From Klebsiella phage RCIP0102, in the sequence record OR532896.1: a stretch of 64,000 bases of DNA, one strand, 5' to 3'. Below, piece by piece: positions 45,820 to 47,459 of this stretch (positions are counted from its first letter, which is position 1; each line of letters opens with the position of its first letter). Both the position numbers and the translations under genes were made by a program. The notes below the pieces were generated by a model. It saw nothing but the letters and a program-made list of their open reading frames with translations, did no database searches and was not told the origin of the DNA.

Positions 45820-45963
45820 TGGACGGTATGCCCGGCCTCGAACCGAGTCACACTGACTTTGCAGAATCCGTGTGTTTAATATATCACCCATACTCGATAG
45901 CATATCTGAACGAGACTGCAATCCCGCTACTCAGCTTACACCATCTTGTATTGTGTCATACCG
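45820..45963 (-). ncRNA. About 144-nt tRNA-like stable RNA candidate (acceptor CGGUAUG/CAUACCG, discriminator U, CCA, T-arm) with a large insertion replacing the anticodon arm
   Basis: Terminal 7-bp perfect acceptor pairing, encoded CCA, D-like stem ACAC/GUGU, T-arm CUCGG UUCGAGG CCGGG. Size similar to T4 species 1/2 RNAs. Confidence 0.45.
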
Positions 45964-45969
45964 ATGATT

Positions 45970-46046
45970 TGGTCTCCATAGAATGACTCGAACATTCGAC
46001 CTCTCCATCCCAAATGGAGCGCTCTACCAGGCTGAGCTATACGGAG
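45970..46046 (-). tRNA. tRNA-Pro (UGG)
   Basis: Acceptor CTCCGTA/TATGGAG, anticodon loop TTTGGGA, T-arm GAATG TTCGAGT CATTC, CCA encoded. Confidence 0.85.
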
Positions 46047-46051
46047 TAATT

Positions 46052-46126
46052 TGGAGCATCCAGGGAGAATCGAACTCCCATCTTCTGGGTGGAAGCCAGA
46101 CATAATATCCGCTATACGATGGATGC
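46052..46126 (-). tRNA. tRNA-Gly (UCC)
   Basis: Acceptor GCATCCA/TGGATGC, anticodon stem-loop TCTGG CTTCCAC CCAGA, T-arm GGGAG TTCGATT CTCCC, CCA encoded. Confidence 0.85.
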
Positions 46127-46131
46127 AAATT

Positions 46132-46206
46132 TGGCAGGCCCTGAAGGAATCGAACCCTCATCACTGGGTTTGGAGCCCAGCATAATAGCCGTTATACTAA
46201 GAACCT
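46132..46206 (-). tRNA. tRNA-Trp (CCA)
   Basis: Anticodon stem-loop CTGGG CTCCAAA CCCAG. Acceptor AGGTTCT/AGGGCCT with two G-U pairs. CCA encoded. Confidence 0.75.
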
Positions 46207-46213
46207 GTTGTTT

Positions 46214-46289
46214 TGGTGCGAATACCTGGGCTCGAACCAGGGACCTACCGCTTATCGGGCGGTTGCTCTACCAACTGAGCTATATTCGC
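46214..46289 (-). tRNA. tRNA-Ile (GAU)
   Basis: Acceptor GCGAATA/TATTCGC, anticodon loop CCGATAA, T-arm CCTGG TTCGAGC CCAGG, CCA encoded. Confidence 0.85.
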
Positions 46290-46293
46290 GAAT

Positions 46294-46378
46294 TGGCGGA
46301 GAGTAAAGGAGTTGAACCCTCACCGTTTCCGATGGCCCGGATTTCAAGTCCGGTTTGCTACCACTAGCGCTACTCTCC
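46294..46378 (-). tRNA. tRNA-Ser (UGA), type II
   Basis: Acceptor GGAGAGT/ACTCTCC, anticodon stem-loop CCGGA CTTGAAA TCCGG, long variable arm, discriminator G, CCA encoded. Confidence 0.8.
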
Positions 46379-46383
46379 AATGT

Positions 46384-46459
46384 TGGGGTGGCCGACGGAA
46401 TTCGAATCCGTGACATCGAGGATCACAACCTCGGGTTCTACCAACTGAACTACGACCAC
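46384..46459 (-). tRNA. tRNA-His (GUG); no encoded G-1 (position -1 is U), discriminator C
   Basis: Acceptor GTGGTCG/CGGCCAC, anticodon loop TTGTGAT, T-arm ACGGA TTCGAAT TCCGT, CCA encoded. Confidence 0.8.
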
Positions 46460-46554
46460 ATCAATATTCACTCCATCCATCATGAGGACTTCATACGGTA
46501 GCTAAAGCAGGTTCATGACTTCTGCCTACACATCGTGTTGAATGAATATTAATT
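46460..46554 (-). other. 95-nt spacer inside the tRNA operon with no tRNA fold
   Basis: No T-loop motif and no ORF. Confidence 0.3.
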
Positions 46555-46629
46555 TGGCTGAACCACCTGGACTCGAACCAGGGATCGTAGGATCAAAACC
46601 TACTGCCTTACCAACTTGGCTATGATTCA
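46555..46629 (-). tRNA. tRNA-Gln (UUG)
   Basis: Acceptor TGAATCA/TGGTTCA, anticodon stem-loop GTAGG TTTTGAT CCTAC, T-arm CCTGG TTCGAGT CCAGG, CCA encoded. Confidence 0.8.
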
Positions 46630-46635
46630 ATTGTT

Positions 46636-46711
46636 TGGAGGCGGAGGCAGGATTCGAACCTGCGCGTGTCGGGATATGAGCCCAACATTCTACCAACTGA
46701 AGTTACTCCGC
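46636..46711 (-). tRNA. tRNA with CAU anticodon (Met/fMet or Ile2)
   Basis: Anticodon stem-loop TTGGG CTCATAT CCCGA, T-arm GCAGG TTCGAAT CCTGC. Acceptor register ambiguous by 1 nt. Confidence 0.65.
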
Positions 46712-46873
46712 ATTTATCCGGGTTCTTGAAGTACTAACAAGTAGCTTGATGTAGAACACGCTAAAGGTATAATCTTACGAATATAGAGCTTATTCCGTGG
46801 GAACAAACCGCTTCGTCCTCGGCATTATCTTATAGGACTCAAACTCATCTTCAAGAACTGCCTCGTTCTTATT
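46712..46873 (-). ncRNA. About 160-nt non-tRNA insert bounded by an 11-bp inverted repeat (GGTTCTTGAAG ... CTTCAAGAAC); candidate structured RNA
   Basis: Inverted repeat at 46721..46731 and 46848..46857. No ORF. Lies between tRNA-Met and tRNA-Asp. Confidence 0.35.
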
Positions 46874-46949
46874 TGGCGGACCTAACGGAATTCGAATCCG
46901 TGACTCTCGCGTGACAGGCGAGTATTTTAACCGCTGAAACTATAGGTCC
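46874..46949 (-). tRNA. tRNA-Asp (GUC)
   Basis: Acceptor GGACCTA/TAGGTCC, anticodon stem-loop CTCGC CTGTCAC GCGAG, T-arm ACGGA TTCGAAT TCCGT, CCA encoded. Confidence 0.85.
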
Positions 46950-47179
46950 ATAATTCGCTTTCAGAGATACTCTGGCACGATGCCGAAGCAAAGGGGAACA
47001 GGACTCTCATCACCTTGGTACCAGATGAATCTTGTTTAGCACTCTGTTCTAAGATGTATCCCTGAAAGCGAACTTTCAACGCCGTAAGAAATTATAAGCA
47101 CGTAGTTATCGTTGAGGGAACTCGTACACAGGGAATTCTATGCCGACGATTTATCAGAACGTCTTCTGACTTCTTCATT
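46950..47179 (-). ncRNA. About 230-nt non-tRNA insert containing a 14-bp inverted repeat (CGCTTTCAGrGATAC) enclosing about 90 nt with an internal UUCG hairpin; candidate structured RNA
   Basis: Inverted repeat at 46956..46970 and 47057..47071. Internal tgcttcggca hairpin. No ORF. Confidence 0.35.
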
Positions 47180-47264
47180 TGGCGGGCCGTGCAGGTATCG
47201 AACCTGCCTAGTCATTTCTGACACGGATTAACAGTCCGTCGCTTACCCTCTCAGCCAACGACCC
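47180..47264 (-). tRNA. Type II (long variable arm, Ser-like D-arm, discriminator G) tRNA whose anticodon reads GUU (Asn) as transcribed
   Basis: Acceptor GGGTCGT/ACGGCCC, D-arm GGCTGAGAGGGTAAGC, anticodon stem-loop ACGGA CTGTTAA TCCGT, variable arm GTCAGAAATGAC, T-arm GCAGG TTCGATA CCTGC, CCA encoded. Confidence 0.55.
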
Positions 47265-47269
47265 GAATT

Positions 47270-47346
47270 TGGTGGGACACCGAAGACTCGAACTTCGGAC
47301 ACCCGGATTAAAAGTCCGGTGCTCTAACCAACTGAGCTAGTATCCC
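47270..47346 (-). tRNA. tRNA-Lys (UUU)
   Basis: Acceptor GGGATAC/GTGTCCC, anticodon stem-loop CCGGA CTTTTAA TCCGG, T-arm CGAAG TTCGAGT CTTCG, CCA encoded. Confidence 0.85.
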
Positions 47347-47355
47347 TAAATTTGA

Positions 47356-47439
47356 TGGGGAGTAATGGAGTCGAACCACTCGAGCCTTTTGAGCAACAGA
47401 TTTACAGTCTGTCCCGCTACCCCTACGGTCTAACTCCCC
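47356..47439 (-). tRNA. tRNA-Tyr (GUA), type II, discriminator A, 3' CCA not encoded
   Basis: Acceptor GGGGAGT/ACTCCCC, anticodon stem-loop ACAGA CTGTAAA TCTGT, long variable arm, T-loop TTCGACT. Followed by TCA. Confidence 0.75.
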
Positions 47440-47451
47440 AATGGGTAATTT

Positions 47452-47459
47452 TATTTATA
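47452..47459 (-). promoter_or_regulatory. Late promoter TATAAATA immediately upstream of tRNA-Tyr (head of the tRNA operon)
   Basis: tatttata on the plus strand, 13 nt from the tRNA-Tyr 5' end. Confidence 0.45.

What the first reader, a model, noticed from the sequence alone, without database searches (positions are those of the whole stretch)
45820..47459. tRNA operon about twice the size of the T4 set, with amino-acid identities T4 lacks
Hand folding gives 12 tRNAs here: Pro, Gly, Trp, Ile(GAU), Ser(UGA), His, Gln, Met/Ile2(CAU), Asp, a type-II GUU tRNA, Lys and Tyr. Five more lie at 42921..44705: Thr, Leu, Arg, a second CAU tRNA and a pseudo-tRNA. T4 itself has 8, namely Gln, Leu, Gly, Pro, Ser, Thr, Ile and Arg. 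His, Asp, Lys, Tyr, Trp and Met are additions. The operon starts at a late promoter and is interleaved with non-tRNA spacers. This suggests codon-usage compensation or a counter-measure against host tRNA-targeting defence nucleases such as PrrC, RloC or Retron-Eco7-type anticodon nucleases. Lys, Tyr, Asp and His are classic anticodon-nuclease targets.
Basis: partly seen in the sequence, partly recalled or inferred. Interest (0 to 1): 0.6.

Follow-up and report, generated by a model that had tools for sequence, protein, structure and literature searches.

The report
T4-like phage tRNA gene cluster
This is the ordinary, already annotated 16-tRNA gene cluster of a Klebsiella/Raoultella T4-like phage (genus Jiaodavirus); its one unusual member is an asparagine tRNA with a long extra arm, a form common in phages but almost absent from cells.

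Summary
There are also two sub-threshold tRNA-like elements. The window is a Jiaodavirus (99% identical to Raoultella phage Ra_O-2), and public records of this genus already annotate these tRNAs. The cluster sits at the T4 tRNA locus (gene 1, 57A, 57B, internal protein, tRNAs). It keeps all eight T4 anticodons and adds Tyr, Lys, Asn, Asp, His, Trp, Ile(GAU) and an initiator-like CAU tRNA. The spacers are structured RNAs, and one is a homolog of T4 rnaC. A TATAAATA motif precedes tRNA-Tyr, and so does a MotA-type middle promoter shared with T4.

Codon bias fits the T4 core set only. The additions are best read as a back-up tRNA supply. Published experiments show that homologous T5 tRNAs (Lys, Thr, Asn, Tyr) defeat PARIS, P2-OLD and Retron-Eco7.

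The main finding is already known, so interest is low. The GUU tRNA is worth follow-up. It belongs to a family of at least 103 distinct sequences. All have a long variable arm and nearly all have G73. I found no paper describing this architecture.

The parts
47495..47519 (-). MotA-box-type middle promoter motif: TGCTTTA (47513-47519), a 12-nt spacer, then TATTAT (47495-47500)
   Evidence: The sequence ATATGCTTTA...TTTGTTATTATTAA is conserved with the region upstream of T4 tRNA-Gln. The match to the T4 middle-promoter consensus is from my own knowledge. Function was not tested.
47452..47459 (-). T4 late-promoter-like motif TATAAATA, 12 nt upstream of tRNA-Tyr
   Evidence: Exact match, conserved in two Jiaodavirus relatives. 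The motif is not enriched in the window (9 found, 6 expected).
47354..47440 (-). tRNA-Tyr(GUA), class II; the 3' end reads A-TCA, so CCA is not encoded
   Evidence: ARAGORN; Rfam 33.6 bits; sequence
47270..47346 (-). tRNA-Lys(UUU); the anticodon stem CCGGA/TCCGG differs from E. coli GTTGA/TCAAT; the site cut by AriB reads UAAUC|C (A41C)
   Evidence: the AriB site is defined in PMC12409363
47180..47264 (-). Class II (long variable arm) tRNA with anticodon GUU: 85 nt, 3-bp D stem, 4-bp variable stem capped by GAAA, G73, encoded CCA
   Evidence: ARAGORN structure; Rfam 49.2 bits; family analysis
46950..47179 (-). 230-nt structured spacer RNA between Asn and Asp
   Evidence: MFE -70.4 kcal/mol, z = -3.4. 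79% identical over 112 nt to the equivalent spacer of phage CC31. No Rfam match.
46874..46949 (-). tRNA-Asp(GUC)
46713..46873 (-). 161-nt structured spacer RNA closed by a 10-bp stem
   Evidence: z = -2.3. 71% identical over 171 nt to phage CF1 and partly to CC31, in both cases just upstream of the CAU tRNA.
46636..46712 (-). Initiator-like tRNA(CAU): U1.C72 mismatch, GGG/CCC in the anticodon stem, loop CUCAUAU
   Evidence: 71% identical to E. coli tRNA-fMet, against 62-64% to Ile2 and elongator Met.
46555..46629 (-). tRNA-Gln(UUG), about 81% identical to T4 tRNA-Gln
46460..46554 (-). 95-nt spacer RNA closed by a 14-bp terminal stem
   Evidence: z = -2.4; 78% identical in two Jiaodavirus relatives
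46384..46459 (-). tRNA-His(GUG) with C73 but U, not G, at position -1
46294..46378 (-). tRNA-Ser(UGA), class II
46214..46289 (-). tRNA-Ile(GAU)
46132..46206 (-). tRNA-Trp(CCA)
46052..46126 (-). tRNA-Gly(UCC), 79% identical to T4 tRNA-Gly
45970..46046 (-). tRNA-Pro(UGG), 80% identical to T4 tRNA-Pro
45820..45969 (-). Homolog of T4 rnaC (species 1 stable RNA), with a tRNA-like acceptor stem, T arm and 3' CCA
   Evidence: T4 rnaC nt 25-63 match at 74% (E = 0.007). The consensus fold with T4 rnaC has 33 pairs, 13 with compensatory changes. z = -3.1. ARAGORN with relaxed settings calls 45820-45907 tRNA-like.
44784..45794 (-). Four small ORFs of unknown function separating tRNA subclusters
   Evidence: PHROG families of unknown function
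44735..44750 (-). Intrinsic-terminator-like hairpin GCCCTCTTCGGAGGGC followed by a T run, 30 nt upstream of tRNA-Ile2
44629..44705 (-). tRNA-Ile2 type (anticodon CAU), ortholog of T4 tRNA-Ile; acceptor GGCCCUG with C4-G69 and C5-G68
   Evidence: 81% identical to T4 tRNA-Ile over 63 nt (E = 2e-12); 70% identical to E. coli ileX
43425..44611 (-). Three ORFs inside the cluster, one of them gp30.3-like
   Evidence: PF08010, E = 4.6e-56, for 43425-43874; the others fall in PHROGs of unknown function
43284..43414 (-). tRNA-like RNA with a 7-8 bp acceptor stem, D arm and T arm, plus a roughly 75-nt central domain in place of the anticodon arm
   Evidence: ARAGORN intron mode. Annotated as a 128-nt 'tRNA-Thr' in phage K65PH164. 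The frame is conserved but the core is replaced in that phage.
43206..43282 (-). tRNA-Arg(UCU)
43117..43201 (-). tRNA-Leu(UAA), class II
42996..43116 (-). 121-nt structured spacer RNA closed by GAAGAAU/AUUCUUC, then ACCA
   Evidence: z = -2.1; 100% identical in two relatives
42920..42995 (-). tRNA-Thr(UGU), 93% identical to T4 tRNA-Thr; the anticodon stem ACUCA/UGAGA lacks the CNG motif and opens with an A.A mismatch
   Evidence: the features that give P2-OLD resistance are described in PMC12445682
42836..42911 (-). Pseudo-tRNA: a cloverleaf with a 12-nt anticodon loop and no encoded CCA
   Evidence: Rfam tRNA 20.5 bits, below the cut-off of 29; fold; annotated 'tRNA-Gln-CTG' or 'Undet' in relatives

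Best explanation
This is the tRNA and small-RNA gene cluster of a T4-like Klebsiella/Raoultella phage of the genus Jiaodavirus. It lies on the minus strand at the same genomic position as the T4 tRNA region.

The likely transcription is polycistronic, starting from a MotA-type middle promoter and a late-type promoter in front of tRNA-Tyr. Host RNase P and 3'-processing enzymes would then cut the precursors into 16 tRNAs, at least one rnaC-type stable RNA, and several other stem-closed spacer RNAs. This processing step is inferred, not shown.

The cluster has two functional layers:
1. The eight T4-type tRNAs are Gln-UUG, Leu-UAA, Gly-UCC, Pro-UGG, Ser-UGA, Thr-UGU, Ile-CAU and Arg-UCU. They read A-ending codons that this 39% GC phage uses more than its host does.
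2. The eight additions are Tyr, Lys, Asn, Asp, His, Trp, Ile-GAU and an initiator-like CAU tRNA. Seven of them (all except Ile-GAU) belong to single-anticodon families, so codon bias cannot explain those. They most likely keep phage translation running when host tRNAs are depleted, either by tRNA-cutting defence nucleases or by the general decay of host tRNA during infection.

The identity and anatomy of the cluster are shown here. The functions are inferred from homologous phage tRNAs tested by others.
For: Identity:
- 16 of 16 tRNAs are called by two independent methods.
- The region is 99% identical to Raoultella phage Ra_O-2, and 129 phage records cover at least 80% of it.
- Jiaodavirus records annotate the same tRNAs.
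- Synteny with T4 holds: gene 1, 57A, 57B, internal protein, then tRNAs.
- Six T4 tRNAs match at 72-93% identity, and all eight T4 anticodons are present.
- An rnaC homolog is present, with 13 compensatory pairs.
- The promoter motif is shared with T4.

Codon layer:
- The cognate A-ending codons are 1.2-3.4 times enriched against E. coli K-12 CDS.

Back-up layer:
- The window encodes the exact trio Lys-UUU, Thr-UGU and Asn-GUU. The T5 versions of these three are necessary and sufficient to neutralise PARIS AriB (PMC12409363).
- The window's Lys carries A41C at the AriB site, a change reported to strongly inhibit cleavage. Its Thr carries C40G.
- The Thr anticodon stem lacks the CNG motif and is shortened, which are the features reported to resist P2-OLD.
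- T5 tRNA-Tyr rescues phage from Retron-Eco7.
- Host tRNAs decay during T4 infection while the phage tRNAs rise (PMC9697503).
- Of 13 window tRNAs compared with E. coli, 11 have an identical 7-nt anticodon loop. Every one has a different anticodon stem.
Against: - Nothing was measured in this phage or its host. Expression, processing, charging and nuclease resistance are all inferred.
- The host proxy for codon usage was 38 E. coli K-12 genes, not Klebsiella.
- Several of the most phage-enriched codons (ACT, TCT, GTA, GCT) have no phage tRNA, and Glu and Cys are over-used without a phage tRNA.
- The class II Asn tRNA has the same UAAUC|C sequence at the AriB site as E. coli tRNA-Asn, so its resistance, if any, is not explained by that site.
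- In one published test, a T5-like phage tRNA-Asn did not rescue from PrrC170.
- The Lys tRNA keeps U16 and U39, which AriB needs.
Confidence: 0.65

Rival explanations
1. Codon and amino-acid usage compensation alone explains all 16 tRNAs. The phage simply tops up tRNAs for the codons and amino acids it uses more than the host.
For: - The A-ending cognate codons of the isoacceptor-choice tRNAs are enriched 1.2-3.4 times.
- Lys is used 2.0 times and Tyr 1.8 times more in phage ORFs than in the E. coli proxy.
Against: - His (0.92x), Trp (1.07x) and Asn (1.09x) are not over-used, yet each has a phage tRNA.
- Glu (1.5x) and Cys (1.65x) are over-used and have none.
- ACT, TCT, GTA and GCT are among the most enriched codons and have no phage tRNA.
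- This idea does not explain the systematic differences in anticodon stems or the class II Asn tRNA.
Confidence: 0.15
2. The tRNAs replace host tRNAs that decay as a consequence of the phage's own shut-off of the host (the model of Yang et al. 2021). Host defence plays no part.
For: - Host tRNAs fall and T4 tRNAs rise during T4 infection (PMC9697503).
- The 16 tRNAs can read about 53% of phage codons when wobble is allowed.
Against: - Only 16 anticodons are covered, so the phage still depends on host tRNAs for 47% of its codons.
- The specific overlap with known nuclease targets (Lys, Thr-UGU, Asn, Tyr) and the changes at known cleavage sites fit a defence role better.
Confidence: 0.15
3. Some members do not work in translation. 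They act as decoys or competitive inhibitors of tRNA nucleases, or as regulatory small RNAs. Candidates are the class II GUU tRNA, the tRNA-His lacking G-1, the pseudo-tRNA, the tRNA-like RNA with a central insertion, and the spacer RNAs.
For: - The PARIS authors raise inhibition by competition as a possibility.
- The tRNA-His has U at -1, so it lacks the main HisRS identity element (the role of G-1 is from my own knowledge).
- Two elements are clearly not standard tRNAs.
- T4 rnaC and rnaD still have no known function.
Against: - The class II GUU family keeps the full AsnRS identity set: GUU in all, G73 in 100 of 103, and an intact 7-bp acceptor in 99 of 103.
- T5 tRNA-Asn contributes to restoring growth and plating under PARIS.
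Confidence: 0.05

Closest known systems
Bacteriophage T4 tRNA region (8 tRNAs plus rnaC and rnaD)
   Same: - Same genomic position, downstream of gene 1, 57A, 57B and an internal protein.
- Same strand logic, with subclusters split by ORFs.
- All eight T4 anticodons are present, six with 72-93% sequence identity.
- An rnaC homolog is present.
- The promoter motif upstream of the first tRNA is shared.
   Different: - Twice as many tRNAs, with eight extra anticodons.
- Different gene order.
- No detectable rnaD homolog and no segB gene.
- Extra structured spacers and two tRNA-like elements.
- 15 of 16 tRNAs encode CCA, whereas four of the eight T4 tRNA genes end without an encoded CCA.
tRNA clusters of other Jiaodavirus phages (ATCCa, K65PH164, PKO111, KPV15, Ra_O-2)
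   Same: 93-99% identical over the whole 5.3 kb. The same tRNAs are annotated, including the 85-nt tRNA-Asn and the two odd elements.
   Different: - Only minor differences.
- Some relatives carry about 0.7-0.9 kb of extra DNA, annotated as a homing endonuclease in several records.
- The core of the tRNA-like RNA at 43284-43414 is swapped in K65PH164.
Phage T5 tRNA region and its anti-defence tRNAs (Lys, Thr-UGU, Asn, Tyr)
   Same: - The window encodes the same four anticodons.
- Its class II Asn tRNA is about 79% identical to the tRNA-Asn of T5-type phages.
- Anticodon-stem changes at or near nuclease sites follow the same pattern.
   Different: - T5 belongs to a different virus family and has about 24 tRNAs.
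- The window's Lys carries only one of the two protective changes (A41C, not U39A) and keeps U16.
- The window's Thr is the T4 type with a short variable loop, whereas a T5-like contig carries a long-arm Thr(UGU).
Canonical class II tRNAs of bacteria (Ser, Leu, Tyr)
   Same: Long, base-paired variable arm, 3-bp D stem, overall length 83-90 nt. G73 as in tRNA-Ser.
   Different: - The anticodon is GUU (Asn), and the anticodon arm is that of E. coli tRNA-Asn apart from position 27.
- 73 of 103 family members have the U1-A72 pair seen in E. coli tRNA-Asn.
- G2-C71, a SerRS element in E. coli as I recall it, is present in only 43 of 103.

Membership tests
tRNA (Rfam RF00005) | Covariance-model score at or above the gathering cut-off (29 bits) | tested here: met
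   16 of 16 score 32.3-72.5 bits. The element at 42836-42911 scores 20.5 bits and fails.
tRNA (Rfam RF00005) | Cloverleaf with a 7-nt anticodon loop, called by an independent method | tested here: met
   ARAGORN default settings call the same 16. The two tRNA-like elements appear only with relaxed or intron settings.
T4-type (Tevenvirinae) tRNA region | Position downstream of gene 1, 57A, 57B and the internal-protein genes | tested here: met
   PHROG matches for dNMP kinase, tail fibre chaperone, the 57B family and internal virion protein at 48481-50213; T4 map; CC31 and CF1 maps
T4-type (Tevenvirinae) tRNA region | Orthologs of the eight T4 tRNAs | tested here: met
   All eight anticodons are present. 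Thr 93%, Ile(CAU) 81%, Gln 81%, Pro 80%, Gly 79%, Leu 72%. Arg and Ser match by anticodon only.
T4-type (Tevenvirinae) tRNA region | rnaC (species 1) stable RNA | tested here: met
   Weak sequence match (E = 0.007), but a shared fold of 33 pairs with 13 compensatory changes (two sequences only)
T4-type (Tevenvirinae) tRNA region | rnaD (species 2) stable RNA | tested here: not met
   No match better than E = 2.9 to any part of 42600-47700
T4 late promoter | TATAAATA at about -10 relative to the transcript start | tested here: inconclusive
   The motif is present 12 nt upstream of tRNA-Tyr and conserved in two relatives. It is not enriched in the window, and no transcript data exist.
Bacterial tRNA-Asn | AsnRS identity set: anticodon GUU plus discriminator G73 (Li, Pelka and Schulman 1993, cited in PMC9976931) | tested here: met
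   Window tRNA: GUU and G73. Family: G73 in 100 of 103. Identity rule.
Bacterial tRNA-Asn | Class I architecture (short 4-5 nt variable loop, about 76 nt) | tested here: not met
   85 nt with a 15-nt variable region forming a 4-bp GAAA hairpin. E. coli asnT is 76 nt.
Bacterial tRNA-Asn | Charged with asparagine | not testable with these tools
   Indirect only: T5 tRNA-Asn helps restore growth when host tRNA-Asn is cut.
Bacterial tRNA-Ser | Long variable arm and G73 | tested here: met
   The arm is shorter (3-4 bp in 77 of 103 members) than in the window's own tRNA-Ser.
Bacterial tRNA-Ser | Serine anticodon (NGA or GCU) | tested here: not met
   GUU in the window tRNA and in all 103 members, though the search pattern required it. 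SerRS does not read the anticodon (my own knowledge), so mis-serylation is not excluded.
Nuclease-resistant phage tRNAs (anti-PARIS set) | Presence of Lys-UUU, Thr-UGU and Asn-GUU together | tested here: met
   requirement defined in PMC12409363
Nuclease-resistant phage tRNAs (anti-PARIS set) | Substitutions at the AriB site U36-A-A-U-C|A41 | tested here: inconclusive
   Lys UAAUC|C (A41C) and Thr UAAUG|A (C40G) are changed. Asn UAAUC|C equals host Asn. Lys keeps U39 and U16.
Nuclease-resistant phage tRNAs (anti-PARIS set) | Actual resistance to cleavage | not testable with these tools
   Needs cleavage assays
Bacterial initiator tRNA | 1-72 mismatch and three G-C pairs at the bottom of the anticodon stem | tested here: met
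   U1.C72 mismatch; UUGGG/CCCGA against E. coli UCGGG/CCCGA. The defining features are from my own knowledge.
Bacterial initiator tRNA | Discriminator A73 | tested here: not met
   The discriminator is U73.
tRNA-Ile2 (lysidine type) | CAU anticodon with C4-G69 and C5-G68 in the acceptor stem, and orthology to T4 tRNA-Ile | tested here: met
   The TilS determinants are from my own knowledge. The modification itself cannot be tested here.

The most novel reading that the evidence does not exclude
The 85-nt GUU tRNA belongs to a large, virus-enriched family of asparagine tRNAs. These carry the AsnRS identity set (GUU, G73, often U1-A72) on a class II body with a short variable arm, usually capped by a GNRA tetraloop.

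The arm may act as a steric shield. It emerges right next to the 3' strand of the anticodon stem, where Toprim nucleases such as PARIS AriB (which cuts between nucleotides 40 and 41) and OLD act. That would let the phage keep a host-identical anticodon arm for AsnRS and the ribosome while escaping cleavage.

Long-arm versions of Thr(UGU), Cys, Trp, Gly, Pro and Ile(UAU) tRNAs in the same viral arrays would be the same trick applied elsewhere. I found no paper describing this architecture, including the two 2025 papers that used T5 or other phage tRNAs functionally.
Probability: 0.25. Interest if true: 0.65.

Novelty: already known. Interest (0 to 1): 0.3.

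Why it matters
As submitted, the finding is routine. Large tRNA clusters are a known and variable feature of T4-like phages: T4 has 8, CC31 has 8, CF1 has 10-11 and Jiaodavirus has 16-18. This exact cluster is already in GenBank. Its value is as a natural test case for the recent idea that phage tRNAs are counter-defence tools, because the cluster combines the PARIS trio (Lys, Thr, Asn) with Tyr and all four GUN-anticodon tRNAs.

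The part that could matter more is the long-arm tRNA-Asn. In cells, long variable arms are restricted to Ser, Leu, Tyr and Sec tRNAs. A widespread phage tRNA-Asn that breaks this rule bears on tRNA identity, since AsnRS and SerRS might both recognise it. It also suggests a new, structure-based way to evade tRNA nucleases.

Tried and rejected
- **Rfam at E-value threshold on 42600-47700.** No known RNA family matched any spacer. Only weak chance hits appeared (YrlA, MIR173, c-di-GMP-II).
- **blastn of the rnaC-like RNA against all phage records.** It found only Jiaodavirus copies at 95% identity or more, so no covariation set could be built. I fell back on a two-sequence comparison with T4.
- **MAFFT plus RNAalifold on 40 class II Asn tRNAs.** The 5' ends and variable arms were out of register, so only the anticodon and T stems were recovered. 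I parsed the arms directly in Python instead.
- **First codon-usage proxy.** It used ORFs from an island-rich, 47.6% GC stretch of E. coli and understated the differences. I replaced it with 38 annotated K-12 CDS. No Klebsiella chromosome was available.
- **Enrichment test for TATAAATA.** Not significant.
- **Consensus fold of the tRNA-like RNA at 43284-43414 across three phages.** No convincing covariation in the swapped core.
- **Six literature searches for a long-arm tRNA-Asn in phages.** Nothing found. Older T5 tRNA papers in subscription journals are not searchable here.
- **Pseudogene or relic reading.** Rejected for the 16 tRNAs because of their scores, intact acceptor stems and conservation.
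- **Idea that the GUU tRNA is a mutated tRNA-Ser(GCU).** Considered and set aside. The anticodon arm matches tRNA-Asn, and most family members have the U1-A72 pair seen in E. coli tRNA-Asn.

Full report
**1. The observation**

ARAGORN on the whole window finds 16 tRNA genes. All are on the minus strand, between 42920 and 47440. Rfam's tRNA model finds the same 16 at its curated threshold, at 32-72 bits against a cut-off of 29.

Thr-UGU, Leu-UAA, Arg-UCU and a second CAU tRNA lie at 42920-44705. This matches the hand-folded list exactly.

Two further elements are tRNA-like but fall below threshold:
- 42836-42911 scores 20.5 bits. It folds as a cloverleaf with a 12-nt anticodon loop.
- 43284-43414 has an acceptor stem, D arm and T arm around a large central insertion.

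**2. What the window is**

The 5.3-kb region is 99% identical to Raoultella phage Ra_O-2. It is 93-98% identical to many Klebsiella phages of the genus Jiaodavirus (Straboviridae, Tevenvirinae). In all, 643 phage records match, and 129 cover at least 80% of the query.

Two of these records annotate the same tRNAs, including the tRNA-Asn. They label the two odd elements 'tRNA-Gln-CTG', 'Undet' or a 128-nt 'tRNA-Thr'.

Upstream ORFs match dNMP kinase (gene 1), the 57A chaperone, the 57B family and an internal virion protein. This is the T4 order. Other Tevenvirinae carry different sets at the same locus. CC31 has 8. CF1 has 10 annotated, plus an unannotated Tyr. The cluster is therefore a known, variable feature of this phage group.

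**3. Relation to the T4 set**

All eight T4 anticodons are present. Identities to T4 are Thr 93%, Ile(CAU) 81%, Gln 81%, Pro 80%, Gly 79% and Leu 72%.

The T4 'Ile' tRNA has a CAU anticodon. Its ortholog here is the CAU tRNA at 44629-44705, which has the acceptor stem GGCCCUG with C4-G69 and C5-G68, as in E. coli ileX.

The other CAU tRNA (46636-46712) has a U1.C72 mismatch and the GGG/CCC anticodon stem. Its arm, UUGGG-CUCAUAU-CCCGA, is close to E. coli tRNA-fMet (UCGGG-CUCAUAA-CCCGA). It is 71% identical to tRNA-fMet, against 62-64% to Ile2 and elongator Met. I read it as initiator-like, although its discriminator is U73 rather than A73.

The additions relative to T4 are therefore Tyr, Lys, Asn, Asp, His, Trp, Ile-GAU and this initiator-like tRNA.

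**4. Spacers and signals**

Each non-tRNA spacer folds into a structure closed by pairing of its own two ends. The z-scores run from -2.1 to -3.4 for the five true spacers. None matches an Rfam family.

- Sequence similarity is weak (E = 0.007).
- The two RNAs share a consensus fold of 33 pairs, 13 of them with compensatory changes.
- Both end in a tRNA-like T arm and acceptor stem.

T4 RNAC and RNAD are late RNAs of unknown function. No rnaD homolog was found. Two spacers are also partly conserved in CC31 and CF1.

TATAAATA lies 12 nt upstream of tRNA-Tyr and is conserved in two relatives, but the motif is not enriched in the window. About 35 nt further upstream is a MotA-box-like TGCTTTA, a 12-nt spacer and TATTAT. 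This stretch is nearly identical to the sequence upstream of T4 tRNA-Gln. The cluster probably has middle and late promoters, which fits the early-and-rising expression of T4 tRNAs. A strong terminator-like hairpin sits at 44735-44750.

**5. Function: codon usage**

The window is 39.4% GC. I compared 89 window ORFs with 38 annotated E. coli K-12 genes. The cognate codons of the eight isoacceptor-choice tRNAs are all enriched in the phage:

| Codon | Enrichment |
|---|---|
| AGA | 3.4x |
| TCA | 2.2x |
| ACA | 2.2x |
| GGA | 1.8x |
| ATA | 1.65x |
| TTA | 1.3x |
| CCA | 1.25x |
| CAA | 1.24x |

This supports codon compensation for the T4 core. The support is partial. ACT, TCT, GTA and GCT are equally enriched and have no phage tRNA. 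The single-anticodon additions cannot be chosen for codon bias. In amino-acid use, Lys (2.0x) and Tyr (1.8x) are over-used, but His, Trp and Asn are not, and Glu and Cys are over-used without a phage tRNA. E. coli is only a proxy for Klebsiella.

**6. Function: counter-defence**

Published experiments on homologous phage tRNAs give direct precedent:
- PARIS AriB cuts E. coli tRNA-Lys(UUU), Thr(UGU) and Asn(GUU) between nucleotides 40 and 41. The three T5 versions together are necessary and sufficient for rescue (PMC12409363; PMC11464382).
- P2-OLD destroys tRNA-Thr(UGU). Phage Thr tRNAs resist it through loss of the CNG motif and a shorter anticodon stem (PMC12445682).
- Retron-Eco7 depletes tRNA-Tyr, and T5 tRNA-Tyr rescues. 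A phage tRNA-Lys rescues from PrrC170 (PMC11555353).

The window encodes all of these tRNAs. The details fit in part:
- Its Lys reads UAAUC|C at the AriB site. This is A41C, a change reported to strongly inhibit cleavage.
- Its Thr reads UAAUG|A. Its stem ACUCA/UGAGA lacks CNG and opens with an A.A mismatch.
- Of 13 tRNAs compared with E. coli, 11 have an identical 7-nt anticodon loop. Every one has a different stem.

The limits are clear. Lys keeps U39 and U16, which AriB requires. Nothing was tested in this phage. From my own knowledge, colicin E5-type nucleases target the four GUN-anticodon tRNAs (Tyr, His, Asn, Asp), all of which are present here.

**7. The GUU tRNA**

Its features are 85 nt, a 3-bp D stem, a 4-bp variable stem with a GAAA loop, G73 and an encoded CCA. 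Its anticodon arm (ACGGA-CUGUUAA-UCCGU) differs from E. coli tRNA-Asn at position 27 only.

Homologs occur in 620 phage records from several families. These include T5-like Demerecviridae, several Tevenvirinae genera, Phapecoctavirus, a jumbo Alcyoneusvirus and Aeromonas phage PX29. Every annotated hit among the 60 listed rows is labelled tRNA-Asn.

I scanned two collections with a pattern specific for the Asn anticodon arm followed by a long gap:
- **Viral contigs.** 114 loci had a GUU tRNA of at least 79 nt, almost all inside tRNA arrays.
- **Cellular genomes.** Among 185,579 species genomes there were only 30 stretches. 16 had a GUU tRNA of at least 80 nt, many of them inside arrays of 7-36 tRNAs within 8 kb.

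The family has 103 distinct sequences:

| Feature | Count |
|---|---|
| 7-bp acceptor stem | 99 of 103 |
| G73 | 100 of 103 |
| U1-A72 (as in E. coli tRNA-Asn) | 73 of 103 |
| G2-C71 | 43 of 103 |
| GNRA loop on the variable arm | 67 of 103 |
| Distinct variable hairpins | 72 |

The mean folding energy of the variable regions is -3.4 kcal/mol, against -0.6 for shuffles.

In a sample of viral contigs taken with the anticodon arm alone, about 14 of 120 were the long form, 95 the short form and 11 uncalled.

AsnRS identity in E. coli rests on the anticodon and G73. Together with the T5 rescue data, this makes a true Asn tRNA the most likely reading. SerRS recognition of the long arm is not excluded.

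The papers that used T5-type tRNA-Asn do not discuss the arm. PMC12409363 never uses the word 'variable', and the single occurrence in PMC11555353 was not among the passages I saw. Six literature searches found no description of it. Viral arrays also hold long-arm Thr(UGU), including one in a T5-like contig, plus Cys, Trp, Gly, Pro and Ile(UAU) tRNAs.

**8. Verdict**

The cluster is already annotated in its genus, and the counter-defence role of phage tRNAs has been shown for T5. I rate interest at 0.3. Most of that comes from the long-arm tRNA-Asn family and the tRNA-His without G-1, which are cheap to test experimentally.

Noticed in passing
window 47180-47264 (-); loci L040-L159: The long-arm tRNA with a GUU anticodon is a large, virus-enriched family. 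It has 103 distinct sequences. G73 is present in 100 of 103, U1-A72 in 73 and a GNRA-capped variable hairpin in 67. Only 16 such genes turned up in 185,579 species genomes. No paper describing the architecture was found.
   Followed up: yes
viral loci such as L050, L113, L187 (Thr-UGU); L044, L077-L079 (Cys); L145, L082 (Trp); L173, L180 (Ile-UAU): Viral tRNA arrays also hold tRNAs of at least 80 nt, often with GNRA-capped variable hairpins, for isotypes that normally have a short variable loop. Counts are Thr-UGU 9 of 94, Cys 9 of 68, Trp 6 of 74 and Ile 20 of 105 (17 of them UAU), plus a few Gly and Pro. One Thr-UGU is in a T5-like contig.
   Followed up: partly
window 46384-46460 (-): tRNA-His has C73 but U rather than G at position -1, so the usual G-1 identity element for HisRS is not encoded. 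The same holds in two Jiaodavirus relatives. Among tRNA-His genes in the fetched viral arrays, U-1 with C73 (27) is as common as G-1 with C73 (23).
   Followed up: partly
window 43284-43414 (-); L002 2283-2424: This tRNA-like RNA has its acceptor stem, D arm and T arm conserved to the base. Its roughly 75-nt central domain is replaced by an unrelated sequence of the same length in the otherwise 94%-identical phage K65PH164. It looks like a cassette swap inside a tRNA frame.
   Followed up: partly
window 42836-42911 (-): This pseudo-tRNA has a good acceptor stem, D arm and T arm but a 12-nt anticodon loop and no CCA. It is 100% conserved in two relatives and is annotated inconsistently there (Gln-CTG or undetermined).
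   Followed up: partly
window 46460-46554, 46713-46873, 46950-47179, 42996-43116 (-): Four spacers between tRNAs fold as self-contained structures closed by their own ends (z from -2.1 to -3.4). Two are partly conserved in other genera (CC31, CF1). They match no Rfam family and are unannotated in public records, or lie under doubtful 'hypothetical protein' calls.
   Followed up: partly
window 43425-43874 (-): An ORF inside the tRNA cluster belongs to the T4 gp30.3 family (PF08010, E = 4.6e-56). The neighbouring ORFs fall in PHROG families of unknown function.
   Followed up: no
window 42500-47800 compared with hits H1, H2, H10-H25: Several close relatives carry about 0.7-0.9 kb more DNA in this region than the window does. 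In many of those records it is annotated as a homing endonuclease, reminiscent of segB inside the T4 tRNA cluster. The window appears to lack it.
   Followed up: no
window 47354-47440 (-): tRNA-Tyr is the only one of the 16 without an encoded CCA. The discriminator A is followed by TCA, so it would need 3' trimming and the host CCA-adding enzyme.
   Followed up: no
window 46636-46712 (-): The initiator-like tRNA has U rather than A at position 38 and U73 rather than A73. As I recall, VapC toxins cut initiator tRNA between positions 38 and 39, so U38 might matter. This was not tested.
   Followed up: no
L161 about 4826-4912; L001 5853-5928: There are annotation gaps in public records. Phage CF1 has an unannotated tRNA-Tyr just upstream of its tRNA-Lys. 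Phage ATCCa leaves a 76-nt gap, exactly the length of the window's tRNA-Asp, unannotated between two spacers that match the window at 98-100%.
   Followed up: no
L011, L012, L016, L035 (Micromonospora, Verrucosispora): Actinobacterial chromosomes carry dense arrays of 23-36 tRNA genes within 8 kb. These arrays include an 89-90-nt long-arm GUU tRNA and are probably of mobile-element or phage origin.
   Followed up: no
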